In this document: piece by piece, positions 5,550 to 28,038 of the stretch | Layout of the letters: every line of letters begins with the position of its first letter | How positions within the stretch are numbered: position 1 is the stretch's first letter | NCBI GenBank assembly: GCA_964415175.1 | Contig: CAYPYG010000003.1 | Coordinates: forward strand, 65,586 to 129,585 | Direction of reading: 5' to 3' | Length of the DNA stretch: 64,000 nucleotides | From: an uncultured Elusimicrobiaceae bacterium | GTDB lineage: Bacteria; Elusimicrobiota; Elusimicrobia; Elusimicrobiales; UBA9959 | The notes under the pieces: generated by a model | What the model was told of the DNA's origin: nothing | The model's input: the letters and a program-made list of their open reading frames with translations, nothing else | The model's database searches: none | Program-made: the position numbers and the translations under genes

Positions 5550-5551
5550 CG

Positions 5552-6499: not shown

Positions 6500-6507
6500 G
6501 CCGGGGC

Positions 6508-7434
6508 TCACTGGAAAGGCTCGGGTCTTATCGCCGCCGGGTCGAGGGAGGAAGCGGAGAGTTCCGACCTGCCGTGCACGCGCAGGTAATCCTTTCTGGC
6601 GCCGCAGCAGGCCGGCTCCAGGCGGCAGCGGGAGCAGGCGGCGCACGCGGCCTTGCCGGCCACCCCCGCCTCCAGGACCCGGTCGCCGCGTCTCCAGCGG
6701 TGGAACTCGAAGGAGAACCCTTCGAAGTTCCCGAGGCGGCAGAGCGGGAAGTTCTGGACCACGGCCCTGATCCCGGCGAGTTTCAGCCGGCCGAGCGCCA
6801 GTTTGAGGTACGGTTCGACCTCGGAGTAGCGGGGCACGAGTTCCGCGCTGTCCGCGACCCGTCCCGCGTTGCGCACGAAAGTGAAATTCACGAAGGCCAG
6901 GTCCGGCAGCGCGCCGGCCGTCCACTCCGCGAAGGCCGGCAGGCGGCGGTAATTGCCGCGGTAGATGATATGGAAGAGCCTGATCCTGTCCGCGGCCCCC
7001 ATGGCTTTAAGATTTTCGAGGCCTTTCATGGCCAGGGGGAACTTCACGCTCCGGGTGGCGTGCGCGTAGGTCCTCTCGTCGGCCCCGGGCAGGTTCACCG
7101 TGAAATAGTCTATCTCCTTAACTGCCTTCCGGCAGAATGCCGGGTCGGACAGCGCCACGCCGTTCGTCGAGAGCATGAAACGCCGCACCCCGGCCTTTTT
7201 CAGCGCGGCCACCCAGTCGAAGAAATCGTTCCCGGCGGTCGGCTCGCCTCCGCCCTCCAGGCTGACCGCTTCTATCCGCCGCCGCCGCACTTCGGCCAGG
7301 ACCTTGTTCAGCGGCGCCGCCGGTTCGCCCCTGGGCGGGCTCTGGCAGCAGCGGCAATAGAGGTTGCAGGTGCGGGCCATCGGCACGCACAACTGCTCGC
7401 TGATCCAGCTTTTGTCCCCGGTCTTCCGCTTCAC
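6508..7434 (-). CDS. Radical SAM protein (small, MoaA/PqqE-like core with Cx2Cx5C tail)
   Basis: CNLYCRCC (CxxxCxxC) near the N-terminus, plus SLEGGGEPT and LSTNG. The C-terminal NFPLCRLG...CAACSRCRLEPACCG resembles the tail of the 3-791 product. Its stop lies 9 nt upstream of the U32 start. Confidence 0.8.
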   Translation of the reverse strand: MKRKTGDKSWISEQLCVPMARTCNLYCRCCQSPPRGEPAAPLNKVLAEVRRRRIEAVSLEGGGEPTAGNDFFDWVAALKKAGVRRFMLSTNGVALSDPAFCRKAVKEIDYFTVNLPGADERTYAHATRSVKFPLAMKGLENLKAMGAADRIRLFHIIYRGNYRRLPAFAEWTAGALPDLAFVNFTFVRNAGRVADSAELVPRYSEVEPYLKLALGRLKLAGIRAVVQNFPLCRLGNFEGFSFEFHRWRRGDRVLEAGVAGKAACAACSRCRLEPACCGARKDYLRVHGRSELSASSLDPAAIRPEPFQ

Positions 7435-8797: not shown

Positions 8798-8810
8798 CGG
8801 ATGCTTAATG

Positions 8811-8842: not shown

Positions 8843-8844
8843 GT

Positions 8845-10613: not shown

Positions 10614-10623
10614 GGCGCGAACG

Positions 10624-11865: not shown

Positions 11866-11894
11866 GGGCCGGCCGCGCGGCGGCCGGACGGAGC

Positions 11895-14148: not shown

Positions 14149-15666
14149 ATGAAACACCCGCGAACGATACCGGAACCTTTCCTGCTTGAGGTCTTCCTGA
14201 CCAACCGGTGCAATATGGACTGCTCCTATTGCGCCTCCCGGCACATGATAACGCAGAAGACCGGCCGCGCCCTGAGCTTCGGGCAGCTCAAGGCCGCGGT
14301 GGACGTTTACGCCGCCTACGGCCGCGACGGCGGCGGGCCCCGCCGCGTTTCCGTGACGGGCGGGGAGCCTCTGCTGGAATTCGATACTCTTAAGCGCTTC
14401 GTCCGCTACGTCAGGCGCCGGTATCCCGGTTTCGAGATCAAGGTCGTGACCAATGCCACGCTGCTGGACAGGGAGAAAGCGGAGTTCTTCTTCGAGAACG
14501 ATGTCTTCCTCGTGATAAGCCTCGACGGCTGCCGGGAGGAGCACGACAGGCACCGCGTCTTCGGGGACGGCGCCGGACGCTCCGCCTTCGACGCCGTCCT
14601 GCGCAATCTCCGGCGCCTGCCGGCCGGGATGCGCCGCTCCGGCAACTTCTGCGTCTCCACGGTCATAACCTCCGAGACCGTCGCCTCTCTGCCCAGGACG
14701 CTGCGCTTCTTCGAGGAACTGGGGTTCCGCCAGGTCGCGCTCGGCTTCGACGAGTACGAGATGTGGAAGCCGGACGGGATACGCCGCCTGGAGAGAGCGC
14801 TAGCGGAGATAAAGGAGCGCCATTTCCGCGGGATAGTCGAGAGCGGCGACCTCGACGACCTCATCTGCTTCTCTTTCGTCGCCAGCTACCGGCTGGAAAG
14901 CCAGCGCCTGCTCTCGGATTATTTCGACGTTTTCTGCCGCGAGGTCACGCTGATGTTCGACGGGTACTTCTATCCCGGCGAGGCGGTCTTCGGCATGTCG
15001 GGGGAGGAGAAGTACAGGATAGGGACCCCGCGGACCGGGATAGACTTCGGCCGGGTCCGGGAGATCTATTCCGAGGCTTTCCCGGTCATACGGCGCTACG
15101 GGGAGAACGTGGGCGTGATCTGGCCGGTCAGCAGGTACTTCCACGCCGCCAACCGCGGCGTCGATCCGGACGCGATGATCGGGAACGCCGTGAGCGTCAA
15201 CGCCGCTTTCGACCGGGTCTTCGGCCCCTATTGGCGCATACAGAAGGTGCTGCTGCTGCTTAAGTCCGACGCGGCTTTCGGCGATTTCGCGCATCGCCCG
15301 AAGTATCTGGCGGGCAGGGAGACCGGCAGGCTGCGGCTCGCCGTATCCGGGATATCCGGACTCGCGGGCCTGCGGGCCGCGACCGACTATTTCCTGTATT
15401 CGCCCGGGAAGAAAAAGTCGCTGGTCCTGGAGGCCGTTGATCCCTCCGCCAGGACCCTGGACGCGGCGGAGGGGATGATTCTCTATTCGGTCATGAAGGC
15501 CCGTTCCCTTGGAAAAAAACTGGAACTGACGCTGGAGGCCGATGCGTCCTGCCTCGATGCCGGACGTTGGCGTTACCTGACCGAGCACGGCGTCAGGATC
15601 GGTATCAAGACTTCGGTAAAGAGCGCGCCCCGGAGATCACAGAACCCGCGGTGCCGCGTCTTATGA
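14149..15666 (+). CDS. Radical SAM paralog P1 (anSME/SPASM-type core, novel C-terminal domain)
   Basis: LLEVFLTNRCNMDCSYCAS; TGGEPLLEF; SLDGCREEHDRHRVF; FGDFAHRPKY; FLYSPGKKKSLVL; MKARSLGKKLEL. Confidence 0.85.
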   Translation: MKHPRTIPEPFLLEVFLTNRCNMDCSYCASRHMITQKTGRALSFGQLKAAVDVYAAYGRDGGGPRRVSVTGGEPLLEFDTLKRFVRYVRRRYPGFEIKVVTNATLLDREKAEFFFENDVFLVISLDGCREEHDRHRVFGDGAGRSAFDAVLRNLRRLPAGMRRSGNFCVSTVITSETVASLPRTLRFFEELGFRQVALGFDEYEMWKPDGIRRLERALAEIKERHFRGIVESGDLDDLICFSFVASYRLESQRLLSDYFDVFCREVTLMFDGYFYPGEAVFGMSGEEKYRIGTPRTGIDFGRVREIYSEAFPVIRRYGENVGVIWPVSRYFHAANRGVDPDAMIGNAVSVNAAFDRVFGPYWRIQKVLLLLKSDAAFGDFAHRPKYLAGRETGRLRLAVSGISGLAGLRAATDYFLYSPGKKKSLVLEAVDPSARTLDAAEGMILYSVMKARSLGKKLELTLEADASCLDAGRWRYLTEHGVRIGIKTSVKSAPRRSQNPRCRVL

Positions 15667-17214: not shown

Positions 17215-19683
17215 ATGGAAAGCATAGTCTTCTTCGGAAAAGGAGGGGTGGGAAAGAGCACCATCGCCTCGAACGTGACGGTCGTCCTGGCCCGCGGCGG
17301 CCGGAAGGTCCTCCATGTGGGCTGCGACCCCAAAATGGATTCGACGCTGGCGCTGATGGGCCGGCATATCCCGCCGTACGCGGGGAAGGCGGGCGACGGA
17401 GACCGGCTGGTCGAGAGCGTCTTCGAATCGCCAGTCCCCGGCGTCCATTGCGTGGAGGCCGGCGGGCCCGAGCCCGGGGTCGGCTGCGCCGGGCTGGGGA
17501 TAGGCATAATGCTGGACGCGATGAAGGACGGCGGGCTCCTGGAGGACGCCGGCTACGGGGCCGCCGTCTTCGACGTTCTGGGCGACGTGGTCTGCGGCGG
17601 TTTCGCCGCCCCTCTGCGCCGCGGTTTCGCCAGGAAGGTCGTGATAGTCACCTCGGAGACGCCGCTCTCGCTTTACGCCGCCAACCGGCTGATAATGATG
17701 ACGGGGAATTATTCGCGCAACGGCGTCTACCTGGCCGGCCTGGCCGTCAACGCGCTGAGGCCGGAGGGTGTCGGTACCGCGGAGGCCTTCGCCGCCGCGG
17801 TCAATACGCGCGTTCTCGGGGTGACGCTCCGGGACCCCGCGGTGTCGGAGGCGGAGAACGCGCGGCTTCCGGCCGTGCTGTCGAGCCCGAAAAGCGACTT
17901 CGCCCGCCGCCTGGTGAAACTCTGTTCCGCCATACAGGCGGCCGGCAGGCCGTCCTCCCCTCCGCGCGCCCTGACCGAGGCCGAGTTCCGCTCTTTTATC
18001 GGGGGGGGCGCCGGCCCCGCCGCCCGCCCTTCCGGCGCGCGCCGGGGCGGCCGTTCCGCTCCCGCGGCGCCGGAGAAACTGATCGTCTCGGCGGGATTCC
18101 GTTTCGCGGGCATCGAGGGGGGGCAGCTCCTTTTCGACTGGACCTCCTCGCGCGGCGTCTTCAGGACCGTCATCGCCCCCGCGTCGGCTTCGAAGGGTGG
18201 CGCGACCGTGTTCTCCGACTGGACGGTCTGCTTCCATCCCTCCGCCGGCCGCGCCTCGGAGGCCTTCGGCGTGGAACTGATGGAGGCGGCGGGACGTCTC
18301 GCTTCGCTGCGTTTCGAGGAGCTGTCCGGGGCCCAGGCCGGACCCGGAGGGGAACCCGTTCCGGCGCTCCGCCACGCGGGCGCCCCGGCGGGGGAACGGC
18401 ATCACCTGGGTTTCGGCCGCTGGCCGCGGTTCATCTTCGCCGGTAGCGAGGTCGACGCCCTGGCGCCGCCGGACTCGGTCATGGCGATGCACGGGGACGA
18501 CGAGTGCCGTTTCTGCATCTGCGAGGGCGGCGCGCTGGGCGCTTTCAGCGAGAACGCCTGCGTCAGGCCGGGCGGCGCGGACATGCCGGGCCCGGTGCTG
18601 CCCAGGTCCGACGAACGGGAGCCTTCCACCGGTCTGCGCTCCATCGAGGCGGTCATGGGCGACGACGATAAGATGCTCGCGGCCATGCGCGCCGCCGCCG
18701 CCCAGGCCGGGCCGGGCGGGCTGGCCGAGTTCTACGTGGGCTGTTCCCCGCTGCTGCTGGCCAGCGACGCCGGGGCCGCGGCCCGTCGCGTCCGCGCTGA
18801 AACCGGCGTCGAGGTCTCCCTGGAGCGCTACTGTTCGCTGGGCAGACATTCCCCGGAGAAGGCGGAGCGCCGCGCCGCCTTCATGGCCGACAAACTTCGC
18901 CGCGCGGCCCGCTCCCCGTCGCGGGACGTGAACCTGGTCTATTACGGCGAATGCCCGCCCGGACTGCGCGCGCTGCTCAACGACAGGGGGATATCCGCGG
19001 AGGAGCCGGGCGAGGATTTTTACGCCGGTTCGGCGGCCGCCAGGCTGCAGGTCCTCTCCGCGCCCGACCCGGTGCTGCAGAACGCCCTCGACCGGGCGGG
19101 TCTGCGCTGGCTGCTGCCGCCGGCGCCCTACGGCCTCGCCGGCACCTCCGCCTGGCTGGAGGCCATAGCCGGCGCCCTGGGCCGCCGGGGTTTCGACGCC
19201 GCTCCTCCGCCCGCGACGCTCGCCGTCCACGCCCGACTGCGCCGCCGCGCCGCCGGAGTTTCCGCCGCTTTCGTACTGCCCGCCGGGGACGCGGCGCTGC
19301 TCTCCGGCGGCGGGGCTTTCAGGCGCGTCCCCGTCCCGGCCGTGCTGGCCGAGGGAGGCTTCGGCCTGCGCTTTTTCGTGCTGGCGCGCCCGGCCGACGG
19401 ACGGAAGGCCGCCGCCGGGCTGAAGGCCGCGCTGCCGGGGTTCAGGTTCCCGGCGCCGGTCCTTTTCTCCTCCCCGCAGGGCCTGGCCCGCCCGCTGAAA
19501 GCCGACCGGTCCGTGCGCCTGGTCTACTCCGACGTGCGTTCGGACGGGCGGGTGACGGCGGCCGGGAAGACCCCTTTCTCCTCCGGTATATTCGAGCCCG
19601 GCTTCGACGGCGCGGCGGAGACGCTGCGCCGCCTGCTGGAACTGTGCGACTGGGATTTCAATGAACGCTACTTCGCGCGCTGA
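17215..19683 (+). CDS. NifH-like domain fused to NifD/E/BchN-like domain (copy 2)
   Basis: GKGGVGKST, CDPKMDST, GGPEPGVGCAGLGIG and FDVLGDVVCGGFAAPLR, then MAMHGDDECRF and FYVGCSPLLLASD. 822 aa. Starts 4 nt after the TPR gene stop. Confidence 0.85.
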   Translation: MESIVFFGKGGVGKSTIASNVTVVLARGGRKVLHVGCDPKMDSTLALMGRHIPPYAGKAGDGDRLVESVFESPVPGVHCVEAGGPEPGVGCAGLGIGIMLDAMKDGGLLEDAGYGAAVFDVLGDVVCGGFAAPLRRGFARKVVIVTSETPLSLYAANRLIMMTGNYSRNGVYLAGLAVNALRPEGVGTAEAFAAAVNTRVLGVTLRDPAVSEAENARLPAVLSSPKSDFARRLVKLCSAIQAAGRPSSPPRALTEAEFRSFIGGGAGPAARPSGARRGGRSAPAAPEKLIVSAGFRFAGIEGGQLLFDWTSSRGVFRTVIAPASASKGGATVFSDWTVCFHPSAGRASEAFGVELMEAAGRLASLRFEELSGAQAGPGGEPVPALRHAGAPAGERHHLGFGRWPRFIFAGSEVDALAPPDSVMAMHGDDECRFCICEGGALGAFSENACVRPGGADMPGPVLPRSDEREPSTGLRSIEAVMGDDDKMLAAMRAAAAQAGPGGLAEFYVGCSPLLLASDAGAAARRVRAETGVEVSLERYCSLGRHSPEKAERRAAFMADKLRRAARSPSRDVNLVYYGECPPGLRALLNDRGISAEEPGEDFYAGSAAARLQVLSAPDPVLQNALDRAGLRWLLPPAPYGLAGTSAWLEAIAGALGRRGFDAAPPPATLAVHARLRRRAAGVSAAFVLPAGDAALLSGGGAFRRVPVPAVLAEGGFGLRFFVLARPADGRKAAAGLKAALPGFRFPAPVLFSSPQGLARPLKADRSVRLVYSDVRSDGRVTAAGKTPFSSGIFEPGFDGAAETLRRLLELCDWDFNERYFAR

Positions 19684-20959
19684 GCGCTTCCCTAAACTTT
19701 TCAGCCTGCCCTACCAGCTGGGGGTCTACCTCGCGGTGAACGCCGTGAGCGACGCCGGGCTGGTAGTGGACGGCGGGGATTGCGTCATGCCCAAGGCCGA
19801 TTTCATCGCCGGGAACCACGATCTCCGGTCCACGCTGCTTTCCCCCGACGGAAAGCACCGTATCGTCTGCACCATGACCGCCCCCCTGCCCCAGGACTCC
19901 AACCACGAGAGGAAGATCTCTTCGCTGCTGGCCGAGGTCGCCTCGGACGGGGGTTTTTCCGCGGTGCTGGTCACCGGCCTGCCTTTCTTCAAGCTGGCCG
20001 GGGTGGATTACGAGGGCGTCGCCGCGGGGATCACGAAAGGGGCGCCGGTCGCCGATGTGCCGGCCCTTTCGCTGGAGGCCGGCTGGCTGGAGGGCTACGA
20101 CCTGGCGCTGGAAGCGCTGGTCCGGCTGCTGCCGGCCCCGCGCCGCCGCGTCCGCCGTCCCGGTAAGCGGCCCCGCGTGGCCGTCGCCGGTTACCTTTTC
20201 GACCGCGGGGAACGCGATCATGCCGCCAATCTCGCGGAACTGGGCCGCCTGCTGCAACTGAGCGGCCTGGAGCTCGTCTCGGTGCTGCCGTCGGGCGTTC
20301 CCTTCCTGGAACTGGCCCGGGGTCTGGAGGCGGACCTCGTAGTCTCCCTTCCCTACGGCCGCCGTGCCGCCGCGCGGCTGGCCGCCCGCTCCGGCGCCGT
20401 CCTGCTGGAGACGGGGCTGCCGATGGGCCTGAAAGGCACTTCGGCCTGGCTGGCCGCGCTGCGCCGCGCCGCCGGACTCCGGGGAGGGCCGCCGGCCGCC
20501 GTCGCCGCGGAGGAAGTCCTGGCCGCCGGGGAGATGGCCCCGCTGCTGGACGTGCTGGCCCACCGCGGCGCCGTATTCGCCGGAGACCCGCATCTGTTCG
20601 GGGCTTTCGCCTCCTTCGCCGGGGAATTGAAGCTCCGCGTGCCGGCCGCGGTGCTGGATTCCGGCACGCGGGAGAAACTGCCGGTCCGTCCGCCTGAACT
20701 CCTGCTCCTGTGCCCGGACATGGCCGGGGCCGCCGGAGCGGTCGCAGCGCTGGCGGGCTATGACAGGCCTCATCTGCTGGTGGGCAATTCTTTCGCGGCG
20801 ACCGAAGGGCTGGCCCCCGGGCTGCCGTTCGTCGAGCTCGGGTTCCCTTCCTACGGACATCACTGCCTCAACGACGAGCCCTTCCTCGGCTTCGCCGGGG
20901 CCAGGACGCTCGCCGGCAGGATGGCGAACGCCTTAAGGGGCGGCAACGGGCCCCGCTGA
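19661..20959 (+). CDS. NifK/N/BchB-like subunit (copy 2)
   Basis: 432 aa with LVVDGGDCVMPKADFIAGNHDLRSTLL, IVCTMT and ELGFPSYGHHCL. It has the same 23-nt overlap with its upstream fusion gene as copy 1. Confidence 0.7.
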   Translation: MNATSRAERFPKLFSLPYQLGVYLAVNAVSDAGLVVDGGDCVMPKADFIAGNHDLRSTLLSPDGKHRIVCTMTAPLPQDSNHERKISSLLAEVASDGGFSAVLVTGLPFFKLAGVDYEGVAAGITKGAPVADVPALSLEAGWLEGYDLALEALVRLLPAPRRRVRRPGKRPRVAVAGYLFDRGERDHAANLAELGRLLQLSGLELVSVLPSGVPFLELARGLEADLVVSLPYGRRAAARLAARSGAVLLETGLPMGLKGTSAWLAALRRAAGLRGGPPAAVAAEEVLAAGEMAPLLDVLAHRGAVFAGDPHLFGAFASFAGELKLRVPAAVLDSGTREKLPVRPPELLLLCPDMAGAAGAVAALAGYDRPHLLVGNSFAATEGLAPGLPFVELGFPSYGHHCLNDEPFLGFAGARTLAGRMANALRGGNGPR

Positions 20960-21022
20960 GCTTTCGCCGGAAACGCCTCCCGTTTTTAGGTAAAATAAAG
21001 CGCGCGCGGAACGGCGTATAAT

Positions 21023-23644
21023 ATGGAAAGCATCGTATTCTTCGGGAAAGGCGGGATAGGCAAGAGCACGCTGGCCTCCAACGTGTCGGCGCTGCTGGCG
21101 GCCGGCGGCGGCCGCGTCCTGCACATCGGCTGCGACCCCAAGATGGATTCCACGCTGGCGCTGATGGGCCGCCATATCCAGCCTTTTTCCGATTCCCCCG
21201 GCCCCGACCCGGAGGCGCGCCTGCGCGAGTTCATCTTCGACGCTCCGGTGAAGGGCGTGCGCTGTATAGAGGTCGGCGGCCCCCGGCCCGGCCTGGGCTG
21301 CGCCGGCACCGGGATAGGCGTCATGCTGGACGCCGTAAGGGATTCGGGACTCCTCGAGAAGGACGGCTACACGGCGGCGGTCTTCGACGTGCTGGGCGAC
21401 GTGGTCTGCGGAGGTTTCGCCGCGCCGCTCCGGCGGGGCTTCGCGAAAAAGGTCGTTATCGTGGTGTCGGAAGAGCTCCTTTCGCTCTATTCCGCCAACA
21501 AACTGATAAAGATGGTCGAGAACTACGCCCGCAACGGCGTCTACCTGGCCGGGCTGGCGGTCAACGCCAAGAACGCGGCCGGCGCGAGAACGGCGGCGGA
21601 TTTCGCTGCCGCCGTGAATACGCGCGTACTGGCCGTCATCCCGCGCGACCCGGCCGTGGCGGCCGCGGAGCGCGGACGGGTGCCGGCGGTACTGGCCTCG
21701 CCGAAGAGCCCTTTCGCCGGGGCTCTGCGCGGTCTTTGCGCCGCCATACGCGCGGCGCGGCCGGGTTCTTCGCCGCCCAGGGCCATGAGCGACCAGGAGT
21801 TCTCGGATTTTATAGAGGGCCGCCCCCCCGCCGCCCGGCCGCCCGCCCCGCGGAGCGTTCTTCCGGCCGGCCGTTCCGGGGCTTCCCGCGGCCTGGCCGC
21901 GGCCTTTACGCGGGCCCGCATGAAACCCATAGGCCTGGAGGGCGGCCAGATCGTCTGCGAGTGGACCGTGCCGTCCTCCTTTGACTGGGGAGAGAGGGGG
22001 CAGGGTCCGGCGAACGGGCGGACCTCGCCGCGCGGGACGCTGAAGATCCTCATCGCCCCCGCCGCCGGCTCCCGGGACGGGCCGATAAGGCTCTCCGACT
22101 GGGCGGTCTGTTTCTACCCCGGCCGGGCGGAGCCCCAGGTACGCGGTCTGGGCGAGGAACTCGCGGCGGCCGCCGCCGGCCTCGCCGGTTTTAAATACGC
22201 GGAGTTGACGGATTATTTCGGCCGCGGCGGGGATCATTACGCCAGGATAAGTTCGTTTTCCGAACACGGGGAACAAACCGGGCCTTTCGGCACGCTCATC
22301 CTCCCGCACATGAGACTGGGGCAGTGGCAGCGGTTTATCTTTCCGCCGGGCACTGTGGACCTGCATATACCGCAGGGCGCGGTCATGGTGGAGCACGGCG
22401 ACATCGAGTGCCGTTTCAGCTGCTGCGACAACGGGGCGTTGAACCTGTTCCGCGAACAAGCCGGTCTCGCCGGTTCCAGCGGCCCCTCGCGCTGCCCGCT
22501 GCTGCCGAAGGAAGAAGCGCACGTGATGAACACCGATTTCGGGGCGCTGGACGCCGCCCGCGGCGACGAAGCGCTGATAAAAGATTCGCTCGACCGCGCC
22601 GCGCGCCTGGCCGGGCCGGGAGGATTGGTGGAATTCTACCTCAGCTGCGCGCCGATGCTGCTGGCCGGCGACACCGCCAGGCTGCTGGAGGGGGTCGAAG
22701 AAGAGCGCGCTGTGACGGCGGTGCAGCTGGGCAGCGACAGCGCCGGGCTGTCGGAGAGGGTCGAGGAAAAGCGCGGCGCGACGGTGGTGGTGGAGAACTG
22801 CAACGGTATTCTTTCCGGCTACGCGTCGGCCAAAACCAAAGCGCGCGCCGCTTTCATGGCCCGCAGGCTGGCGGCGTTCAGGGGCGTGAAACCCTCCGTG
22901 GACGTCAACCTCATCGGTTTCGGGGCTTGCCGGGAAGAGCTCGCCGCCCTGCTGGAGCGGACGGGGCTCACGAGCGCTTCGCCCTCGGAGGATTTTTACG
23001 CGTCGGTCTCGCGCGGCAGGCTGGCCGTGCTGCCCGCCCCCGACGCCGCGCTGTGCGCCGCTTTCGACGAGGCCGGGCTCAAATGGCTCGTCCCGCCCGC
23101 GCCTTACGGCTTCGCCGGAGTCCGCGCCTGGCTGGAAGGCATCCGCGCGGCCCTCGGCCGCCGGACCCCGGCCGCCGGGCCGGCTCCAGGAGCGGAAAAA
23201 GAGCGGCGCGCGCTGGCGCTGGCCGCCGGGCGCTACCGCGCCTGTTTCGTCGCCGCGCCGGAGGAGCTGGAGCCGCTCGCCGGCGGCATCCTCACGGGCG
23301 GCGTGCCGGTGCTGCCGGTAGTGCTCGAGGGCGGCTTCAGGGCGGACCTGCTGGTATACGCGCCGGACCCCGCGGCCAGAACCAGGGCGGCCGCGGCGGC
23401 GCTCGCTCTCGGGCGGAAGCTCGGGGCGCCGCTGCGGCCGCGCTTCTTCTCCACGCCCGCGCGGCTCGACGCGCTGCTCAGGCGGCCCCGCGCCATGAAG
23501 CTCGTCTATTCCGACGCCAGGCTGGACCCCCGCGTGACCGGCGCCGGCCGGAGACCTTTTTCCGCGGCGCTGTTCGAGCCGGGTTATGACGGGGCGCTGG
23601 AGACGGTCCGCCGGCTGCTGGAACTCTGCGAGTGTGACTTTTAA
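21023..23644 (+). CDS. NifH-like domain fused to NifD/E/BchN-like domain (copy 3)
   Basis: GKGGIGKST, CDPKMDST, GGPRPGLGCAGTGIG and FDVLGDVVCGGFAAPLR, then MVEHGDIECRF and FYLSCAPMLLAGD. 873 aa, with an insertion relative to copies 1 and 2. Confidence 0.85.
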   Translation: MESIVFFGKGGIGKSTLASNVSALLAAGGGRVLHIGCDPKMDSTLALMGRHIQPFSDSPGPDPEARLREFIFDAPVKGVRCIEVGGPRPGLGCAGTGIGVMLDAVRDSGLLEKDGYTAAVFDVLGDVVCGGFAAPLRRGFAKKVVIVVSEELLSLYSANKLIKMVENYARNGVYLAGLAVNAKNAAGARTAADFAAAVNTRVLAVIPRDPAVAAAERGRVPAVLASPKSPFAGALRGLCAAIRAARPGSSPPRAMSDQEFSDFIEGRPPAARPPAPRSVLPAGRSGASRGLAAAFTRARMKPIGLEGGQIVCEWTVPSSFDWGERGQGPANGRTSPRGTLKILIAPAAGSRDGPIRLSDWAVCFYPGRAEPQVRGLGEELAAAAAGLAGFKYAELTDYFGRGGDHYARISSFSEHGEQTGPFGTLILPHMRLGQWQRFIFPPGTVDLHIPQGAVMVEHGDIECRFSCCDNGALNLFREQAGLAGSSGPSRCPLLPKEEAHVMNTDFGALDAARGDEALIKDSLDRAARLAGPGGLVEFYLSCAPMLLAGDTARLLEGVEEERAVTAVQLGSDSAGLSERVEEKRGATVVVENCNGILSGYASAKTKARAAFMARRLAAFRGVKPSVDVNLIGFGACREELAALLERTGLTSASPSEDFYASVSRGRLAVLPAPDAALCAAFDEAGLKWLVPPAPYGFAGVRAWLEGIRAALGRRTPAAGPAPGAEKERRALALAAGRYRACFVAAPEELEPLAGGILTGGVPVLPVVLEGGFRADLLVYAPDPAARTRAAAAALALGRKLGAPLRPRFFSTPARLDALLRRPRAMKLVYSDARLDPRVTGAGRRPFSAALFEPGYDGALETVRRLLELCECDF

Positions 23645-24945
23645 TGAAGAACGCCGCGGCTCCCGAAAAATTCCGGAAGACCTACGACCCGCCCTACCTG
23701 CTGGGAGTCTATCTCGCGGTCAACGCCGTTCCCGACGCGGCCGTCATGGTGGACGGGCCCAGCTGCGTCATAACGAAAGCGGATTATATCGCCGGCAACC
23801 ACGATCTTCATTCCACGCTTCTCTCCTGCGACGGGCGGCACAGGGTGATGTGCACCGTGACCAGCACGATGCCGCAGCCGCCCAACCCCGAGGATAAACT
23901 GTCCGCGCTGCTGGAAAGCGCGGCCGGTTCCGGCCTCTACGGCGTGGTGCTGCTTACCGGGCTGCCTTTCATGAGGCTTATCGGCATGGATTACGAGGGG
24001 ATAGCCTCCCGCGTCCGTTCCGGCGCGCCGGTAGCCGTCGTGCCCCCGCTTTCCCTGGAGGGCGACTGGCTGGACGGTTACGCGAAGGCGCTGGACGCGC
24101 TGGTCTCCGCGCTGCCCGTCCGCCGGGTACGCAAGAGGCGCCGTTCGGCGGTGATAGCGGGTTATCTTTTCGACAGGAACGAGCGCGACCACTCCGCCAA
24201 CATTTCCGGTCTGAAGCGCCTGCTCGCGGCCGCGGGCGTGGACCTGCTGGCCGTGCTGCCCGGGGGGAAGGAATTCAAAAGCTGGGAGCGCGCCCGGGAG
24301 GCGGAACTGGTCATTTCGATGCCGTACGGCAGGCAGGCCGCCGCGCGGCTGGCCGCCATGACAGGCGCGCGCCTCGTGGAAACTGGTCTTCCCGTCGGGA
24401 TCGGGGGAACGTCCGCCTGGCTGGCCTCCGTAAGGGCCGCCGCGGGACTCAAAGGTCCTCTGCCTCCGGTCCTCGCGGAACTGGAACGGGCGACCAGGCG
24501 TGAACTCGCTCCGGCGCAGGCCGCGCTCGCGCATCATAACATCGTTTTCGCGGGGGACCCTTACCTTTATTCCGCGCTCCGCGGCTTCGCGCTCGAGCTG
24601 TGCATGCGGGTGCCTGCCGCTTTTATCGGCTCTTTAAGCCGCCCGTTGTCCGCACCGGGTCCCGCCGCCAAGCTCGTTATGTTCGCCCCGGAGGTCGCGG
24701 AGGCGGCGGAGGCGCTGGCCGCGCTGGGCCGTTACGACAGGCCGCACCTGGGCGTATGCGATTCGCTGGCCATCACCGCGGGGCTGACCGGCGGTGTTCC
24801 CGCGGTGGAGCTGGGGTTCCCGTCCTACGCCCATCATTGTCTGAGCGACGAGCCTTTTATGGGTTATGAAGGCGCCAGGTCCCTGGCAGGCCGGCTGCTG
24901 AACGCCCTTCAGTCCGCGGAGCCGGCGGCCGACCGCGGGCGATGA
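23644..24945 (+). CDS. NifK/N/BchB-like subunit (copy 3)
   Basis: 433 aa with VMVDGPSCVITKADYIAGNHDLHSTLL, VMCTVT and ELGFPSYAHHCL. The ATG shares one base with the upstream TAA (TAATG). Confidence 0.7.
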   Translation: MKNAAAPEKFRKTYDPPYLLGVYLAVNAVPDAAVMVDGPSCVITKADYIAGNHDLHSTLLSCDGRHRVMCTVTSTMPQPPNPEDKLSALLESAAGSGLYGVVLLTGLPFMRLIGMDYEGIASRVRSGAPVAVVPPLSLEGDWLDGYAKALDALVSALPVRRVRKRRRSAVIAGYLFDRNERDHSANISGLKRLLAAAGVDLLAVLPGGKEFKSWERAREAELVISMPYGRQAAARLAAMTGARLVETGLPVGIGGTSAWLASVRAAAGLKGPLPPVLAELERATRRELAPAQAALAHHNIVFAGDPYLYSALRGFALELCMRVPAAFIGSLSRPLSAPGPAAKLVMFAPEVAEAAEALAALGRYDRPHLGVCDSLAITAGLTGGVPAVELGFPSYAHHCLSDEPFMGYEGARSLAGRLLNALQSAEPAADRGR

Positions 24946-26403
24946 CTATCCCTGGTCCGGGAGCGGCCCAGGCCGGGATGTCCCCGCGAGCCTGAGTTTC
25001 TTGCCAAGGTAGCGCGCCTTCATGGCGGCGTAGAGCGCCATCCCGTCCGCCAGTTCCCGGCAGGACGCGGGTTCCCCGGCGCATTCCAGCGCCAGTTCCT
25101 TGCGCTCGCCCGGAGAGTAAAGGAAGGGGTCGAGCCTCTCCCGCAGTTTTACCGTCGAACAATCTGGACGGACCGCGAGGCGGAGGGAGCGTATCTCCTT
25201 GTCCCCCCGGTGGCGCGGCAGGTGAGTGAAGTCCCCGAAACCGGGGGTCATGTAGAGGCTTTTGTAGATGGCGAAGATGGAGAGATAATAGCGGGACTCC
25301 TCCTGGAAGGCCCGGTTCAGCTCGGAGGTGCTTTCCAGGATACGGTCTATTTTTTTCTCCGGGTAGCCGTTCACGAGCCCCCAGTAGTAGCCTTCCACCG
25401 GATTGCGCGGACCGGAGCGGTAGCGGCATTTCCTGGAAACCTCGTCGAGCATGGGGGCGAGTATGTCCCTGAGCCGCCCGAGGTCTATGCCGCTCTCCAG
25501 GTCCCCTATGCGGTATTTCGGGTCGATGGGCGGCGGCGCGGTCACGAAATCCGGCGAAGGGTAGAAGAAGCCGTCGTAGTGCAGGGCGAGCGTGCCCGAA
25601 GTGCATTCCCTGCCGTCGTCCTCCGATTTCAGCTCCCGCCTCAGCGGGAATTCCGCGAACGCGGCCTCGGTGCGTTTCACGTCCGAGCCCGGGTTCAGCG
25701 CTCCGAGGAACCCGTCTATCATGCGTCGTAAAGCCAGCCGGAAGCGTTCGATATCGGCCCTCTCCCATATTCCGTAAGCCTCCAGGCCTACCGGGATGGT
25801 CCTCGCCCCGAGGTCGTGCCTGAAAAAATCGACTATCTCCGGCAGCGCGTCCACGGTCCCGGGCGTCAGCGTGGGGGTGATGCAGCAGCGGTCCATGCGC
25901 TCCGGCGTCGGGTAGCCCTTCCTGAGATTTGCCGTCACGGCCTCGAAGACCGAGCCGCGCCCGCCGTCCGCGAATTTCCTGTGCAGATCGTTGACCGGTT
26001 TTATCCCGTCGAGGCTTACGCGCGCGAGAACCCCGTTCCGGAAGAAATAATCCGCCCGGTCCTTCGTCAGGAGGGTCCCGTTGGTGGCCACGGCCAGCTC
26101 GAAGTCCAGCCCCTCGGAGCGTATGTAATCGATGGTCCTTTTGACCAGGTCGAACTCCAGCAGGGGCTCCCCGCCGGAGAACTCCAGCTTGACGGACCCG
26201 GTGAACGTGCGGCGCATCCTGGGGCCCCTGGACACCAGGTCCACGAAGCGCTTCAACTGGGCGAAGGTCAGCGTCCTGTTCTCCGCGCCCCCCCGGAGAT
26301 GCCTGGTGTAGCAGTAGGAGCAGGCCTGGTTGCAGCGGTTCGTCATGATGATCTCGAGGTCGAGCATGGGCGGCTTGGCCGGTTTTGACGGTCCTGTCTT
26401 CAT
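24946..26403 (-). CDS. Radical SAM paralog P2
   Basis: Start at ATG 26403 (MKTGPSKPAKPPMLDLEIIMTNRCNQACSYCYT). SGGEPLLEF; SLDGIKPVNDLHRKF; GFGDFTHLPRH; FLYSPGERKEL; MKARYLGKKLRL. The track ORF to 26871 is read-through of P3. Confidence 0.85.
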   Translation of the reverse strand: MKTGPSKPAKPPMLDLEIIMTNRCNQACSYCYTRHLRGGAENRTLTFAQLKRFVDLVSRGPRMRRTFTGSVKLEFSGGEPLLEFDLVKRTIDYIRSEGLDFELAVATNGTLLTKDRADYFFRNGVLARVSLDGIKPVNDLHRKFADGGRGSVFEAVTANLRKGYPTPERMDRCCITPTLTPGTVDALPEIVDFFRHDLGARTIPVGLEAYGIWERADIERFRLALRRMIDGFLGALNPGSDVKRTEAAFAEFPLRRELKSEDDGRECTSGTLALHYDGFFYPSPDFVTAPPPIDPKYRIGDLESGIDLGRLRDILAPMLDEVSRKCRYRSGPRNPVEGYYWGLVNGYPEKKIDRILESTSELNRAFQEESRYYLSIFAIYKSLYMTPGFGDFTHLPRHRGDKEIRSLRLAVRPDCSTVKLRERLDPFLYSPGERKELALECAGEPASCRELADGMALYAAMKARYLGKKLRLAGTSRPGPLPDQG

Positions 26404-26405
26404 CG

Positions 26406-27905
26406 TCACCTCGTTCTCCCCGGAAAGTGCTCCAGTTCCACGCGCAGCTTTTTCCCCAGCCAGGCGGCCTTCATGGCCGAATACATGAGGACGGCTTCGG
26501 TCTTTTCTTCCGCCGCCCCGGCGGACCCCAGCACAAGGGTCTTCCGCCCGCCGGGAGAATAAAGGAAGTGGTCCACCTCGCCGCGCAGCCGGGCAAGGGA
26601 GGACTCTTCGCCGGCCTCCAGCCGCAGGCGGCGGACCTCCGCGCCCGCCGCGTGTTTCGGCGCGTGGGGGAAATCCCCGAAACCGGCTTCGCGGGAGAGC
26701 CCGCCGTAAAGCCGGTGCAGTCTGAGGAACCCTCCGGCCTCTTCGCGGAAGACCCTGTTGACCTCGGAGGTGCTCTCCAGGATCCGCTCTATCCGCGCGC
26801 GGGAGTAGCGGTTCACCAGGCCCCAGTAATAGCCCTCCACGGGAGAGCGCGGCCCGGACCGGAACCGGCACTTGCGGTCTATGGCGCGCAGCATCGGCGC
26901 GAAAGCGCGGCGCACCGCCGCGAAGTCTATCCCGCTTTCCAGGTCCCCGACGCGGTACTTTTCCTCCGGCGGGGGCGGGGCGACCACGAAGTCCGGCGAG
27001 GGATAAAAGTGTCCGTCGTAGAGAAGGGCGAGCGTCACGGTGGCCTGTTCCGGCCCCTCGCGGTAGCAGCGGATGTCCTGGCGTACGGGGAAATCGGCGA
27101 AAGCGGCCTCTATCTCCTTAGGGTCGCCCCCGGGAGCGAGGGGGGACAGGAAACCGCGGACGGAGCGCCGCAGGGCCAGGCGCAGACGCCGCAGGCCGGC
27201 GGCGTCCCATTCGCCGAAGGCCTCCAGTCCTATCCTGAGCTTGCGCACCCCCATTTCCCCGCGGAAAAAACGGATCGTGTCCGGCAGGGTAGGGATGGTC
27301 TCCGGGTCCAGGGTCGGGGATATGTTGCAATAGGCCCTGTGGCGCTCCGTGGGGAAGCAGGCGGAGATGTTCTTCATGACGGCGTCGAAGACGGATTTGT
27401 CCCTGTCGTGGGCGAAGACCCGGTGCCTGTCGTTGACCGCCTTCAGTCCGTCCAGGCTTATCCTTATGTCGACTCCGTTGGCGACCAGCCAGTCCGCGCG
27501 CTCCGGGGTCAGCAGCGTGCCGTTCGTGGCGATGGCGAGCTCGAAATCCAGACCGCGCCCGCGGATATACTCCACCGCGCGTTTGAGCGACGAATACTCC
27601 ATGAGCGGCTCGCCCCCGGCGAACTCCAGGCGCACCGGGCCGGCGAACTCCGTCCTTATCGCGCGGTCGGAGGCCAGGAGGTCCACGAAGCGTTCGAGCT
27701 GTTCCGGTGTCAGCTTTCTGGCGGAGCTGTCGTCGCGGAGATGGCGCGAGGAGCAGTAGGAACAGGCCAGGTTGCAGCGGTTGGTCAGGAATACTTCGAC
27801 CTCGAAGGCCGGCCGCGGGACCGGTGAGGCCGCCTTTTTCATTCCGGCGGCCGCCCCGCGGCGGGCGGGAACGGGGCTGTTTGCGCGTGACGTCGTTCTG
27901 CTCAT
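26406..27905 (-). CDS. Radical SAM paralog P3
   Basis: FEVEVFLTNRCNLACSYCSS; GGEPLMEY; SLDGLKAVNDRHRVF; GFGDFPHAPKH; FLYSPGGRKTL; MKAAWLGKKLRV. The start could alternatively be the internal MKKAAS, 21 codons downstream. Confidence 0.8.
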   Translation of the reverse strand: MSRTTSRANSPVPARRGAAAGMKKAASPVPRPAFEVEVFLTNRCNLACSYCSSRHLRDDSSARKLTPEQLERFVDLLASDRAIRTEFAGPVRLEFAGGEPLMEYSSLKRAVEYIRGRGLDFELAIATNGTLLTPERADWLVANGVDIRISLDGLKAVNDRHRVFAHDRDKSVFDAVMKNISACFPTERHRAYCNISPTLDPETIPTLPDTIRFFRGEMGVRKLRIGLEAFGEWDAAGLRRLRLALRRSVRGFLSPLAPGGDPKEIEAAFADFPVRQDIRCYREGPEQATVTLALLYDGHFYPSPDFVVAPPPPEEKYRVGDLESGIDFAAVRRAFAPMLRAIDRKCRFRSGPRSPVEGYYWGLVNRYSRARIERILESTSEVNRVFREEAGGFLRLHRLYGGLSREAGFGDFPHAPKHAAGAEVRRLRLEAGEESSLARLRGEVDHFLYSPGGRKTLVLGSAGAAEEKTEAVLMYSAMKAAWLGKKLRVELEHFPGRTR

Positions 27906-27977
27906 CTTCGGGCCGGGCGCGGGCGGCCGCGGCGCCTTATGATTTTAACACTTTTCCGCGCCGGGTAAGGCCCGCCT

Positions 27978-27990
27978 ATTTAATATAATC
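27978..27990. promoter_or_regulatory. AT-rich element in divergent intergenic region between P3 (-) and P4 (+)
   Basis: Sequence atttaatataatc has TATAAT at 27984-27989, about 50 nt upstream of ATG 28039, which has a GGAGGAAGGAG RBS. It is the only AT island in the 133-nt gap. Confidence 0.3.
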
Positions 27991-28038
27991 TACGCCAGGA
28001 GCGCCGCGCCGCGCGCGGGGAGGAAGGAGCCGCCGGGA

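What the first reader, a model, noticed from the sequence alone, without database searches (positions are those of the whole stretch)
17215..24945. Triplication of the Nif-like pair, two copies in direct tandem
Copies 2 and 3 (17215-20959 and 21023-24945) are adjacent, and copy 1 (877-4669) lies 12.5 kb away. The copies are clearly diverged. They have different linkers, copy 3 carries an insertion (EGVEEERAVTAVQLGSDSAGLSERVEEKRGATVVVENCNG), and the partner N-termini differ. They therefore look like functional paralogs rather than a recent duplication. Three distinct ATP-dependent reductases in one locus suggest several sequential reductions, or several substrates, in parallel with the many rSAM paralogs.
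Basis: seen in the sequence. Interest (0 to 1): 0.7.

Follow-up and report, generated by a model that had tools for sequence, protein, structure and literature searches.

The report
Three old nitrogenase-like reductase gene pairs
An uncultured Elusimicrobia genome carries three long-diverged, intact copies of a two-gene nitrogenase-like reductase ("Group VI") next to about 18 radical-SAM genes. This multi-copy layout was published in 2020, and what the enzymes do is still unknown.

Summary
Three intact gene pairs sit at the stated coordinates. Each pair is a NifH-domain fused to a NifD-like domain (F, 822-873 aa), followed by a NifK-like partner (P, 432-437 aa).

- **Divergence:** the copies are 46-52% (F) and 56-60% (P) identical in protein, and no DNA stretch is nearly identical.
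- **Age:** each copy has closer orthologues in other Elusimicrobia MAGs than in its own genome. The window copies grouped together in 0 of 200 bootstraps, and adjacent copies 2 and 3 were never sisters. The paralogy therefore predates speciation, and the tandem did not arise by local duplication.
- **Function retained:** all six genes are under purifying selection against a 91-96% identical genome (dN/dS 0.10-0.25). All keep the ATPase motifs and Fe-S cysteines.
- **Identity:** the family is the published "Group VI" nitrogenase-like system of Elusimicrobia (Méheust 2020; Chem Rev 2026). Those papers already note several copies per lineage-IV genome and many radical-SAM neighbours. No member has been characterised.

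Points absent from the texts I could search:
- The H-D fusion is present in all 87 top homologues.
- There are at least three orthologue subfamilies.
- The copy-3 cassette is missing at the same site in a related MAG.
- The D-like domain matches MarD/NifD better than BchN.
- His-Xaa-Ser repeat peptide modules occur in related loci.

The verdict is a real but already described phenomenon.

The parts
877..3378 (+). F1: fusion of a NifH-like ATPase/[4Fe-4S] domain (aa 1-262), a Pro/Ala-rich linker, an N-terminal extension and a NifD-like domain (833 aa). It belongs to the 'F1' orthologue subfamily.
   Evidence: Orthologues are 92/84/71/~65% identical in other MAGs. The F1 clade has 100% bootstrap support. 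dN/dS is 0.13 against WAS_Bin_5.
3356..4669 (+). P1: NifK-like partner of F1 (437 aa). Its start overlaps the end of F1 by 23 nt.
   Evidence: Orthologues are 96/86/~69% identical. dN/dS is 0.10.
17215..19683 (+). F2: NifH-NifD-like fusion (822 aa). The family-invariant Cys431 (codon 18505-18507) and Cys510 (codon 18742-18744) align with NifD Cys88 and Cys154.
   Evidence: The AF2 model of the D-like part has pLDDT 88, and Foldseek matches NifE/MarD/NifD/ChlN. dN/dS is 0.18.
19661..20959 (+). P2: NifK-like partner of F2 (432 aa), with a 23-nt overlap. Cys41 is near-invariant in the family (115 of 116; invariant in the 63-sequence alignment A4), Cys70 is present in 69% and Cys402 in 90%.
   Evidence: The AF2 model has pLDDT 91.6, and Foldseek matches AnfK/NifK/NifN/BchB at TM 0.75-0.80.
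20960..21022 (.). A 63-bp AT-rich spacer between P2 and F3, with TATAAT directly before the F3 start codon. No scored promoter or terminator lies here.
   Evidence: Sequence read. The consensus scan was not above chance.
21023..23644 (+). F3: NifH-NifD-like fusion (873 aa), in the 'F3' subfamily. It is 7 aa shorter at the C-terminus than F1 and F2, with a TAATG stop/start overlap with P3.
   Evidence: Orthologues P0022/P0023 are 68-69% identical. The F3 clade has 100% bootstrap support. dN/dS is 0.25.
21965..22021 (+). F3-specific 19-aa insertion in the N-terminal extension of the D-like part.
22667..22798 (+). Internal tandem duplication in F3: two diverged 66-nt units (22667-22732 and 22733-22798). 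It lies just after the invariant cluster cysteine, in the motif C-A-P-M-L-L-A | insert | S-D.
   Evidence: 48/66 nt and 11/22 aa identical. Absent from all other family members.
23644..24945 (+). P3: NifK-like partner of F3 (433 aa).
   Evidence: Orthologues are 79-82% identical. dN/dS is 0.18.
4725..7434 (-). A three-gene module downstream of pair 1: an unknown ~275-aa protein, a Peptidase_U32-family protein and a 308-aa radical-SAM protein (HxsC/NirJ-like). The same trio sits beside F-P pairs in other genomes.
   Evidence: It recurs in L004, L011 (twice), L014, L022 and L024.
14149..15666 (+). Radical-SAM/SPASM-like paralogue g13. It is conserved directly upstream of F2 orthologues.
   Evidence: It is 92/81/72% identical upstream of F2 in L001, L002 and L003.
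24946..27905 (-). Two radical-SAM/SPASM-like paralogues (g19, g20) that abut P3. In MAG TamC13-45 their orthologues abut P2 directly.

Best explanation
**What it is.** The three pairs are three anciently separated paralogous sets of the Group VI nitrogenase-like (NFL) reductase of Elusimicrobia. Each set is an NflH-NflD fusion protein plus an NflK-like partner.

**How each set most likely works (inferred, not shown).** Each set is probably a self-contained ATP-driven low-potential reductase.
- The NifH-like domains dimerise around a [4Fe-4S] cluster. The ligands are the Cys97- and Cys132-equivalents, which are F2 Cys91 and Cys127.
- ATP hydrolysis drives an electron to a simple [4Fe-4S] cluster at the D-like/K-like interface. 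The likely ligands are F2 Cys431 and Cys510 plus P2 Cys41, and probably P2 Cys70.
- From there the electron goes to an organic substrate bound mainly by the D-like domain.
- There is no FeMo-cofactor site and no NifB/NifEN, so this is not nitrogen fixation.

**Origin of the three copies.** The sets belong to different orthologue subfamilies that split before the sampled Elusimicrobia diverged. Copies 2 and 3 are neighbours by gene-cassette arrangement, not by tandem duplication.

**Division of labour.** The electron-donor domain is conserved, the substrate-side domain has diverged most, and all copies are under purifying selection. I therefore think it most likely (about 0.6) that the three enzymes reduce different substrates, or different positions or intermediates of one product made with the ~18 radical-SAM enzymes of the island. 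DPOR and COR act in this sequential way on one chlorin. The substrate itself is unknown.
For: **Shown**
- Intact ORFs and domain content.
- Divergence.
- Each copy has closer orthologues elsewhere.
- NJ tree with 200 bootstraps: F1 clade 100%, F3 clade 100%, F2+P0002 100%, window copies monophyletic 0%, F2+F3 sisters 0%.
- Ortholog dN/dS is 0.10-0.25 for all six genes at dS 0.20-0.33.
- The P-loop and both NifH cysteines are invariant in 87 of 87 sequences. D-like Cys431 and Cys510 are invariant in 87 of 87. P Cys41 is present in 115 of 116.
- Profile alignment puts the two D-like cysteines on NifD Cys88 and Cys154, a non-Cys on NifD Cys275, and an invariant Pro on NifK Cys153.
- AF2 models (pLDDT 88 and 92) match alpha-type and beta-type nitrogenase component-1 folds.
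- Domain identities: H 62-70% against D-like 38-44%.
- Cassette variability: TamC13-45 has g13-F2-P2-g19 with no F3P3.

**Literature**
- Group VI NFL is defined in Elusimicrobia, with several copies in lineage IV, many rSAM neighbours and no characterised member.

**Inferred**
- The electron path, the cluster type and the different-substrate reading.
Against: - There are no expression or biochemical data for any Group VI member.
- F3 carries a 22-aa internal duplication immediately after a cluster-ligand cysteine, a shortened C-terminus and the highest dN/dS (0.25). It could be functionally compromised or altered.
- The tree is neighbour-joining on p-type distances, not ML. The wider F2 clade has only 30% support.
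- Paralogue dS is saturated, so paralogue dN/dS values (0.33-0.56) are uninformative.
- Few sites are fixed differently between subfamilies, 13 in all, so there is no clear signature of changed specificity.
- With H fused only to D, the H:D:K ratio is 1:1:1. It is unclear how an H dimer would serve each D/K unit.
- All sequences are MAG or metagenome contigs.
Confidence: 0.85

Rival explanations
1. The copies are a recent duplication, or an assembly or binning artefact.
For: Copies 2 and 3 are adjacent and in the same orientation. The source is a metagenome assembly.
Against: DNA identity is 57-64% with no long identical stretch. The same three pairs, in the same order, occur in an independent MAG at 91-96% protein identity. 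The copies fall in different, well-supported clades.
Confidence: 0.01
2. Only one or two pairs are working enzymes. F3P3 is a decaying or neofunctionalised passenger cassette.
For: F3 has two lineage-specific insertions, one next to a cluster ligand, and a truncated C-terminus. It has the highest dN/dS, 0.25. The cassette is absent between P2 and g19 in TamC13-45.
Against: There are no frameshifts or stop codons. All conserved motifs and cysteines are present. A dN/dS of 0.18-0.25 is still clear purifying selection. The insertions are retained in frame in the WAS_Bin_5 orthologue. The F3 subfamily is conserved in 13 sequences from other metagenomes.
Confidence: 0.1
3. The three pairs are isozymes for the same reaction. 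They would be kept for dosage, for different conditions or for different electron donors, not for different substrates.
For: Very few residues are fixed differently between subfamilies (13 positions). All catalytic-looking invariant residues are shared. Some genomes manage with a single pair (L023, L026).
Against: D-like domains are only 38-44% identical while H domains are 62-70%. The subfamilies persist side by side across genomes. Each has its own conserved neighbours in close relatives: g01 and the U32 trio with F1, g13 and g19-g21 with F2.
Confidence: 0.2
4. Substrate rival A (published proposal): the pairs reduce C=C bonds of a tetrapyrrole to make a novel cofactor, as DPOR/COR and CfbCD do.
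For: This is the proposal of Méheust et al. and of the 2026 review. A HemN/HutW-like rSAM lies in the window at ~50.1-51.9 kb. Five tandem HemN-like rSAM genes sit directly upstream of F in L009 and L015. The H domain's best NCBIfam match is CfbC.
Against: No tetrapyrrole-pathway gene other than the HemN-like one was found in 64 kb. The D-like profile matches MarD (E 1e-21) and NifD/NifE far better than BchN/ChlN (E 2e-5 or weaker). The 15 large rSAM paralogues resemble peptide maturases (PapB, CcpM, HxsB at E 1e-26 to 1e-33) more than AhbC/AhbD/NirJ (E ~1e-11). HemN-like enzymes also act on non-tetrapyrroles (my own knowledge).
Confidence: 0.3
5. Substrate rival B: the pairs cleave or reduce small sulfur or other heteroatom compounds for nutrient acquisition, as MAR and isethionate reductase do.
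For: The closest solved relative of the D-like domain by profile is MarD. Isethionate reductase works with a radical-SAM enzyme (abstract listed). A PALP enzyme and other amino-acid-type genes lie between the pairs.
Against: MAR uses a P-cluster and a NifB-type (MarB) cofactor. Here the P-cluster ligand set is incomplete and there is no NifB homologue in the window. The OTCase/kinase/PALP block is ~90% conserved even where the Nif-like genes differ, so it is probably unrelated housekeeping. Eighteen rSAM genes are hard to explain by a simple cleavage pathway.
Confidence: 0.12

Closest known systems
Group VI nitrogenase-like (NFL) system NflH/NflD/NflK of Elusimicrobia (Méheust et al. 2020, ISME J / bioRxiv 10.1101/765248; Chem Rev 2026, PMC13474568)
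   Same: This is that family. The named homologues are Elusimicrobia MAGs, plus one Polyangiaceae cluster found by the profile search. GWF2_62_30, a genome named in the paper, carries a 52%-identical F and a 59%-identical P. The NifH motifs are kept, the P-cluster cysteine set is incomplete, there are no FeMo-co ligands, many radical-SAM neighbours are present, and there are several copies per genome.
   Different: The searchable text and supplementary legends of both papers do not mention that NflH and NflD form one polypeptide, although every one of the 87 top homologues is fused. The papers also do not mention the subfamily structure, the U32 module or the His-Xaa-Ser modules.
DPOR (BchLNB/ChlLNB) and COR (BchXYZ)
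   Same: These are two paralogous nitrogenase-like ATP-dependent reductases encoded together that act one after the other on one scaffold. Each has a simple [4Fe-4S] cluster at the N/B interface. P2 folds like BchB (TM 0.75-0.80).
   Different: Their subunits are separate proteins. NCBIfam scores here are far below the DPOR and COR cut-offs (168 vs 345 bits for BchL, 47 vs 420 for BchN). The D-like profile matches BchN only weakly. There is no photosynthesis context.
CfbCD (Ni-sirohydrochlorin a,c-diamide reductive cyclase, F430 synthesis)
   Same: It is the best NCBIfam match of the H domain (216 bits). It uses simple Fe-S clusters. CfbC forms a persistent complex with CfbD, which a covalent H-D fusion would mimic.
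   Different: CfbD is a homodimer with no K-like partner. The score here is well below the cut-off (402 bits). The organism is bacterial and non-methanogenic.
Methylthio-alkane reductase MarBHDK (R. rubrum; PDB 9d9u, 9fmg)
   Same: It is the best solved-structure relative of the D-like domain by profile search (E 1e-21), and it is in the top five by Foldseek.
   Different: MAR carries a P-cluster and a NifB-type cofactor made by MarB. Here two P-cluster positions are lost, the Cys275 position is not Cys, and no NifB-like gene is present.
HXS antiphage system HxsABCD (Nat Commun 2026, PMC13128918)
   Same: The small and large rSAM paralogues have HxsC and HxsB among their best NCBIfam matches. 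Related Elusimicrobia loci carry (Ser-His-Gly)n repeat peptides and HxsD proteins within 10 kb of F-P pairs.
   Different: The window itself has no HxS-repeat ORF and no HxsD. All scores are far below the cut-offs. HXS is reported as 99.7% Pseudomonadota and has no nitrogenase-like component.

Membership tests
Group VI NFL (NflHDK) | A NifH-like component with a nucleotide-binding P-loop and the two [4Fe-4S] cysteines (Av Cys97, Cys132) | tested here: met
   GKGGxGKST, C-A-G and V-C-G-G-F-A are present in all three copies and invariant in 87 of 87 family sequences.
Group VI NFL (NflHDK) | D- and K-like subunits highly divergent from NifDK, with an incomplete P-cluster cysteine set (at most four of six) | tested here: met
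   Identity to solved NifD/E/K/N, MarD and BchN/B chains is 12-20% in structural alignments. The D-like domain keeps the Cys88 and Cys154 equivalents. No Cys lies ~26 residues upstream of the Cys88 equivalent, where the Cys62 equivalent would be expected (sequence inspection, not alignment-tested). The K-like subunit keeps Cys41 and Cys70, and the Cys153 position is an invariant Pro. The mapping of P Cys41 and Cys70 to NifK Cys70 and Cys95 is by spacing only.
Group VI NFL (NflHDK) | No FeMo-co ligands (NifD Cys275, His442) and no NifB/NifEN | tested here: met
   The Cys275 position aligns to the non-Cys L-S-x-P-D motif. The His442 position was not covered by an alignment. No NifB/E/N-type hit was found on any ORF of the window. 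The rest of the genome was not seen.
Group VI NFL (NflHDK) | Found in groundwater-type Elusimicrobia (lineages IV/V), with radical-SAM genes alongside | tested here: met
   The named homologues are Elusimicrobia/Elusimicrobiales MAGs, apart from one Polyangiaceae cluster among the distant profile hits. The window has 18 Pfam-supported rSAM genes plus g11, which has only a weak rSAM match but carries a CxxxCxxC motif.
Group VI NFL (NflHDK) | The NifH sequence falls in the Group VI clade of a reference NifH tree | tested here: inconclusive
   No reference tree was built. The indirect support is clear homology to the locus of GWF2_62_30, a genome the paper names. HMM scores of the H domain rank CfbC≈NifH>BchL>BchX, which neither confirms nor contradicts the published placement.
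Canonical nitrogenase (Nif/Vnf/Anf) | Equivalog-level NifH/D/K, a full P-cluster and FeMo-co ligand set, and nifB/E/N | tested here: not met
   The nifH score is 189-209 bits against a 394 cut-off, and nifK is 16-25 against 427. Ligands are missing. No nifB/E/N is present in the window.
DPOR / COR | Equivalog-level BchL/N/B or BchX/Y/Z | tested here: not met
   BchL scores 141-169 bits against 345, BchN 34-47 against 420, BchB 27-35 against 490 and BchX 128-145 against 331.
CfbCD | Equivalog-level CfbC with a homodimeric CfbD and no K subunit | tested here: not met
   CfbC scores 186-216 bits against 402. A K-like partner is present with every copy.
HXS (HxsABCD) | An HxsA effector with His-Xaa-Ser repeats, HxsD, and equivalog-level HxsB and HxsC | tested here: not met
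   No (H-x-S)x3 run occurs in any frame of the window. No HxsD homologue is present. HxsB scores at most 91 bits against 370, and HxsC 63 against 268. These components are met only in related loci L005, L011, L024 and L025.

The most novel reading that the evidence does not exclude
Group VI nitrogenase-like pairs may not be tetrapyrrole enzymes at all. They could be ATP-driven reductases that act on ribosomal peptide or protein substrates, or on a peptide-derived cofactor. Those substrates would be processed by SPASM/Hxs-like radical-SAM enzymes in a fast-changing genomic island. The different F/P subfamilies would be matched to different rSAM products. Fusing H to D (and in some genomes also H to K) would create a self-contained one-complex nitrogenase-like machine.
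Probability: 0.15. Interest if true: 0.85.

Novelty: new member of a known kind. Interest (0 to 1): 0.42.

Why it matters
Group VI is the one major branch of the nitrogenase superfamily with no characterised member. A locus with three selected, diverged enzyme sets and ~18 radical-SAM paralogues points to an elaborate, unknown anaerobic chemistry.

The triplication itself adds nothing new in kind, because it was reported in 2020. The comparative details gathered here do give concrete handles for experiments:
- orthologue subfamilies;
- a naturally occurring genome with and a genome without the F3P3 cassette;
- minimal loci with no rSAM gene;
- H-D and H-K fusions;
- a D-like domain closer to MarD/NifD than to BchN;
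- peptide-type rSAM and His-Xaa-Ser neighbours.

They also caution against taking the tetrapyrrole hypothesis for granted.

Tried and rejected
- **Promoter and terminator scan (13-28.2 kb).** Counts were not above shuffled expectation, and nothing scored in the P2-F3 spacer. Independent transcription of F3P3 is therefore not shown.
- **PADLOC defence models on 10 proteins.** Only generic rSAM-core similarity to viperins was found, so there is no defence-system assignment.
- **Search for His-Xaa-Ser repeat ORFs and HxsD in the window.** None were found.
- **Subfamily-specific fixed residues.** The aim was to detect changed specificity. Only 13 such sites were found, and they were not concentrated in the D-like domain, so the result is uninformative.
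- **Paralogue dN/dS.** dS is saturated at about 1. I replaced this with ortholog dN/dS.
- **Single-sequence PDB search with the D-like domain.** It gave only marginal hits (E ~0.01). A family profile was needed.
- **ISME J version.** PMC7785019 is not held, so I used the bioRxiv text and supplements.
- **OTCase / gamma-PGA-hydrolase-like / amino-acid-kinase / PALP block.** I considered it as part of the pathway and rejected it. It stays 81-96% identical where the Nif-like genes differ or are rearranged, and in L015 it abuts SpoIID directly. It is probably conserved housekeeping that the island is built around.

Full report
**Observation**

The window is about 68% GC with strong third-position GC bias, which allows confident frame assignment. 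At the stated coordinates there are three intact gene pairs on the + strand:
- F1 877-3378 and P1 3356-4669
- F2 17215-19683 and P2 19661-20959
- F3 21023-23644 and P3 23644-24945

Each F protein (822-873 aa) has a full NifH-family domain at residues 1-260 (Pfam Fer4_NifH, E 1e-56 to 1e-65). This is followed by a Pro/Ala-rich linker and a region with a weak Oxidored_nitro match. Each P protein (432-437 aa) is an Oxidored_nitro protein (E 1e-31 to 1e-35). No NCBIfam model reaches its curated cut-off. The best matches for the H domain are CfbC and NifH, and for P they are BchN/BchB/NifK at low scores. tblastn finds exactly three F and three P in the window and no free-standing NifH.

**Divergence and integrity**

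- F copies are 45.8-51.7% identical in protein (57-61% in DNA). P copies are 55.8-59.7% identical (61-64% in DNA). Synonymous divergence between paralogues is saturated at about 1.
- The longest well-matching DNA stretch between any two pairs is 51 nt at 90%. This rules out a recent duplication, gene conversion and assembly collapse.
- Divergence is uneven along F: H domain 62-70%, linker 20-38%, N-terminal extension of the D-like part 27-41%, and D-like domain 38-44%.
Only 22 residues (nt 22667-22732) are extra. They are a diverged tandem duplicate of the following 22 codons (48/66 nt identical). A second 19-residue insertion lies at nt 21965-22021.
- Both insertions are unique to F3 among 87 aligned family members and are retained in its 91%-identical orthologue.
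- F1/P1 and F2/P2 overlap by 23 nt. F3 stops 7 codons earlier, giving a TAATG stop/start overlap.

**What the family is**

A search with F2 returned about 87 full-length homologues. Every one has the same NifH plus Oxidored_nitro fusion architecture, and all the named ones come from Elusimicrobia MAGs. F1 and F3 are 100% identical to proteins on a 148,669-bp contig of an NCBI "MAG TPA Elusimicrobiales bacterium".

This matches the "group VI" nitrogenase paralogue of Méheust et al. (bioRxiv 10.1101/765248). [quoted passage not shown] It predicts reduction of a tetrapyrrole. [quoted passage not shown] The multi-copy state is therefore published.

Neither main text, nor the supplementary legends I could search, mentions that H and D are one polypeptide.

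**Age of the triplication**

- Each window copy has closer relatives in other genomes than in its own. F1 has orthologues at 92, 84, 71 and ~65%. F2 has them at 79% and 52-58%. F3 has them at 68-69%. P1, P2 and P3 reach 91, 93 and 82% respectively.
- I built a neighbour-joining tree of 87 F proteins with 200 bootstraps. It gives 100% support for a 14-member F1 clade, a 13-member F3 clade and F2+P0002. The wider F2 clade gets only 30%.
- The three window copies were monophyletic in 0 of 200 replicates, and F2 and F3 were never sisters.
- In every locus, F type and P type agree, so the pairs duplicated as units.
- A scan of one genome per species found 22 loci, all in Elusimicrobia MAGs, with F immediately followed by P.

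**Are all three maintained?**

Against MAG WAS_Bin_5, which has the same three pairs in the same order (91-96% protein identity; the F1P1 and F2P2 flanks are also syntenic with TamC13-45), dN/dS values are as follows (dS 0.20-0.33):

| Gene | dN/dS |
|---|---|
| F1 | 0.13 |
| P1 | 0.10 |
| F2 | 0.18 |
| P2 | 0.16 |
| F3 | 0.25 |
| P3 | 0.18 |

Values against TamC13-45 are similar for pairs 1 and 2. The P-loop, the two NifH cluster cysteines, two D-like cysteines (F2 Cys431 and Cys510, invariant in 87 of 87) and P Cys41 (115 of 116) are present in all three copies. So are the less conserved F2 Cys339 and P2 Cys70 and Cys402. I found no inactivating lesion.

**Structure and cofactor sites**

- An AF2 model of the F2 D-like part (pLDDT 88, pTM 0.82) matches NifE, MarD, NifD and ChlN (Foldseek E 1e-14 to 1e-12, TM ~0.45-0.55). 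It has an extra N-terminal beta/alpha module.
- The P2 model (pLDDT 91.6) matches AnfK, NifK, VnfK, NifN and BchB at TM 0.75-0.80.
- A profile of the D-like domain finds MarD of methylthio-alkane reductase best (E 1e-21), then NifD and NifE (1e-11 to 1e-10), and ChlN/BchN only at 2e-5 or weaker.
- In those alignments, "HGDxECRF" lies on the NifD Cys88 motif and "GCSPLL(A/S)SD" lies on the "C154-P-x-G-L-I-G-D-D" motif. The NifD Cys275 position is a non-Cys.
- In P, the NifK Cys153 position is an invariant proline.

This fits the review's statement that at most four of the six P-cluster cysteines remain. It suggests a simple [4Fe-4S] cluster at the D/K interface. That conclusion is an inference.

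**Surroundings**

The pairs sit in an island with 18 Pfam-supported radical-SAM genes. There is also g11, which has a weak match and a CxxxCxxC motif, and g22, a degenerate paralogue lacking that motif.
- Fifteen of the rSAM genes are large paralogues, 24-52% identical to each other. Their best NCBIfam matches are peptide-maturase SPASM families (PapB, CcpM, HxsB; E 1e-26 to 1e-33). All are far below cut-off, and they lack the N-terminal leader-recognition region.
- One rSAM gene is HemN/HutW-like.

A three-gene module recurs next to F-P pairs in several genomes: an unknown ~275-aa protein, a Peptidase_U32 protein and a small rSAM protein.

The OTCase/kinase/PALP block between pair 1 and pair 2 is 81-96% conserved even where the Nif-like genes differ. 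In L015 it abuts SpoIID directly. The 13-53 kb stretch of the window therefore behaves as a variable insertion.

In TamC13-45 the order is g13-F2-P2-g19, with no TPR gene and no F3P3. The nearest F3 orthologue sits in a different context (L025). Some genomes have an F-P pair with no rSAM gene within 10 kb (L023), or have the order P-F (L026).

**Leads beyond the finding**

- Related loci L005, L011 and L024 encode (Ser-His-Gly)n repeat peptides. L024 and L025 encode HxsD proteins beside a large rSAM gene.
- HxsABCD was shown in 2026 to be an antiphage system in Proteobacteria.
- The window lacks HxsA and HxsD. It does have a homologue of the Cys-rich exported protein (g12, 13072-14106) that accompanies them.
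- An exhaustive profile search with the P family finds 409 clusters at E ≤ 1e-30, including Polyangiaceae.
- That search also uncovers NifH-K-like fusions. In L027 a partial H-D fusion, an rSAM gene and an H-K fusion lie in a row.

**Mechanism and comparison**

I commit to each pair being an ATP-driven reductase. The electron path would be H-domain [4Fe-4S], then the D/K-interface [4Fe-4S], then an organic substrate. The three pairs would serve different substrates or steps, by analogy with DPOR and COR acting in sequence. The conserved motifs, folds, selection and phylogeny are shown. The electron path, the cluster type and the division of labour are inferred.

The tetrapyrrole proposal is weakly supported by the HemN-like genes. 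It is weakened by the MarD/NifD-like affinity of the D-like domain and by the peptide-maturase-like rSAM paralogues.

With H fused only to D, the H:D:K ratio is 1:1:1. How an H dimer forms on each D/K unit is an open structural question.

**Verdict**

The locus is another member of a published, still uncharacterised system, so the triplication itself is not new.

Noticed in passing
window 3-53351 (e.g. 14149-15666, 24946-29427, 32100-38648, 40945-42315, 43188-53351): There are 18 Pfam-supported radical-SAM genes plus g11 (11862-12968), which has a weak match and a CxxxCxxC motif. Fifteen are large paralogues, 24-52% identical to each other, with a shared ~100-aa C-terminal region (F-G-D-F-x-H-x-P ... 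L-Y-x-x-L-K-A). Their best matches are peptide-maturase SPASM families, and they lack an N-terminal leader-recognition region.
   Followed up: partly
window 29427-30692: g22 is a paralogue of the large radical-SAM family that has lost the CxxxCxxC cluster motif, so it may be a pseudo-enzyme. An orthologue is conserved in WAS_Bin_5 (84%) and TamC13-45 (57%).
   Followed up: partly
window 4725-7434 (-); also L004, L011 (twice), L014, L022, L024: A three-gene module recurs beside F-P pairs: an unknown ~275-aa Cys-containing protein, a Peptidase_U32 protein with a CX6CX19C-type motif, and a small HxsC/NirJ-like rSAM protein. From my own knowledge, U32 proteins include the O2-independent hydroxylases UbiU/UbiV. 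This module was not tested further.
   Followed up: partly
L005 670-813 (-), L011 16014-16256 (-), L024 18966-19307 (+); HxsD in L024 15577-16053 and 17517-17837, and in L025 1343-1828 and 3302-3640: His-Xaa-Ser type repeat peptides ((S-H-G)n tails after a hydrophobic leader) and HxsD proteins lie within 10 kb of Group VI F-P pairs in several Elusimicrobia MAGs. HXS was described in 2026 as an antiphage system found almost only in Proteobacteria.
   Followed up: partly
window 13072-14106: g12 is a Cys-rich protein with an N-terminal membrane anchor or signal and a Lys/Glu-rich coiled-coil tail. Its homologues sit next to the HxsA/HxsD genes in L024 and L005, and upstream of g13-F2 in L003.
   Followed up: partly
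window 15567-17210: The TPR gene directly upstream of F2 has atypical composition (GC3 about 0.67, against ~0.85 for its neighbours). It is absent between g13 and F2 in TamC13-45, so it may be a recent acquisition.
   Followed up: no
window 7530-11865; L015 13988-19871: A block of OTCase-like, gamma-PGA-hydrolase-like, amino-acid-kinase-like and PALP genes stays 72-96% identical across genomes whose Nif-like genes differ. In L015 it abuts SpoIID directly. This shows the rSAM/Nif block of the window is a variable insertion. The block resembles the E. coli ygeW-ygeX-yqeA group (from memory, not tested).
   Followed up: partly
L027 1-5759; proteins P0116 and P0118: Some relatives have a NifH domain fused to the K-like subunit (839 aa). 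In L027 a partial H-D fusion, an rSAM gene and an H-K fusion lie in a row. Each D/K unit would then carry its own two H domains.
   Followed up: partly
L009 7-7400 and L015 46-7500: Five tandem HemN-like radical-SAM genes lie directly upstream of an F-P pair of a further subfamily (F 45% identical to F2).
   Followed up: no
L023 10001-13712; L026 8718-12481: Minimal loci exist. One has an F-P pair with no radical-SAM gene within 10 kb. Another has the reversed order P-F with a single rSAM gene and a response regulator.
   Followed up: no
window 38645-40942 and 30795-32090: A PEP-utilising/PPDK-like phosphotransferase (765 aa) and a 431-aa aldo/keto reductase are embedded among the rSAM paralogues. 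Their roles are unknown.
   Followed up: no
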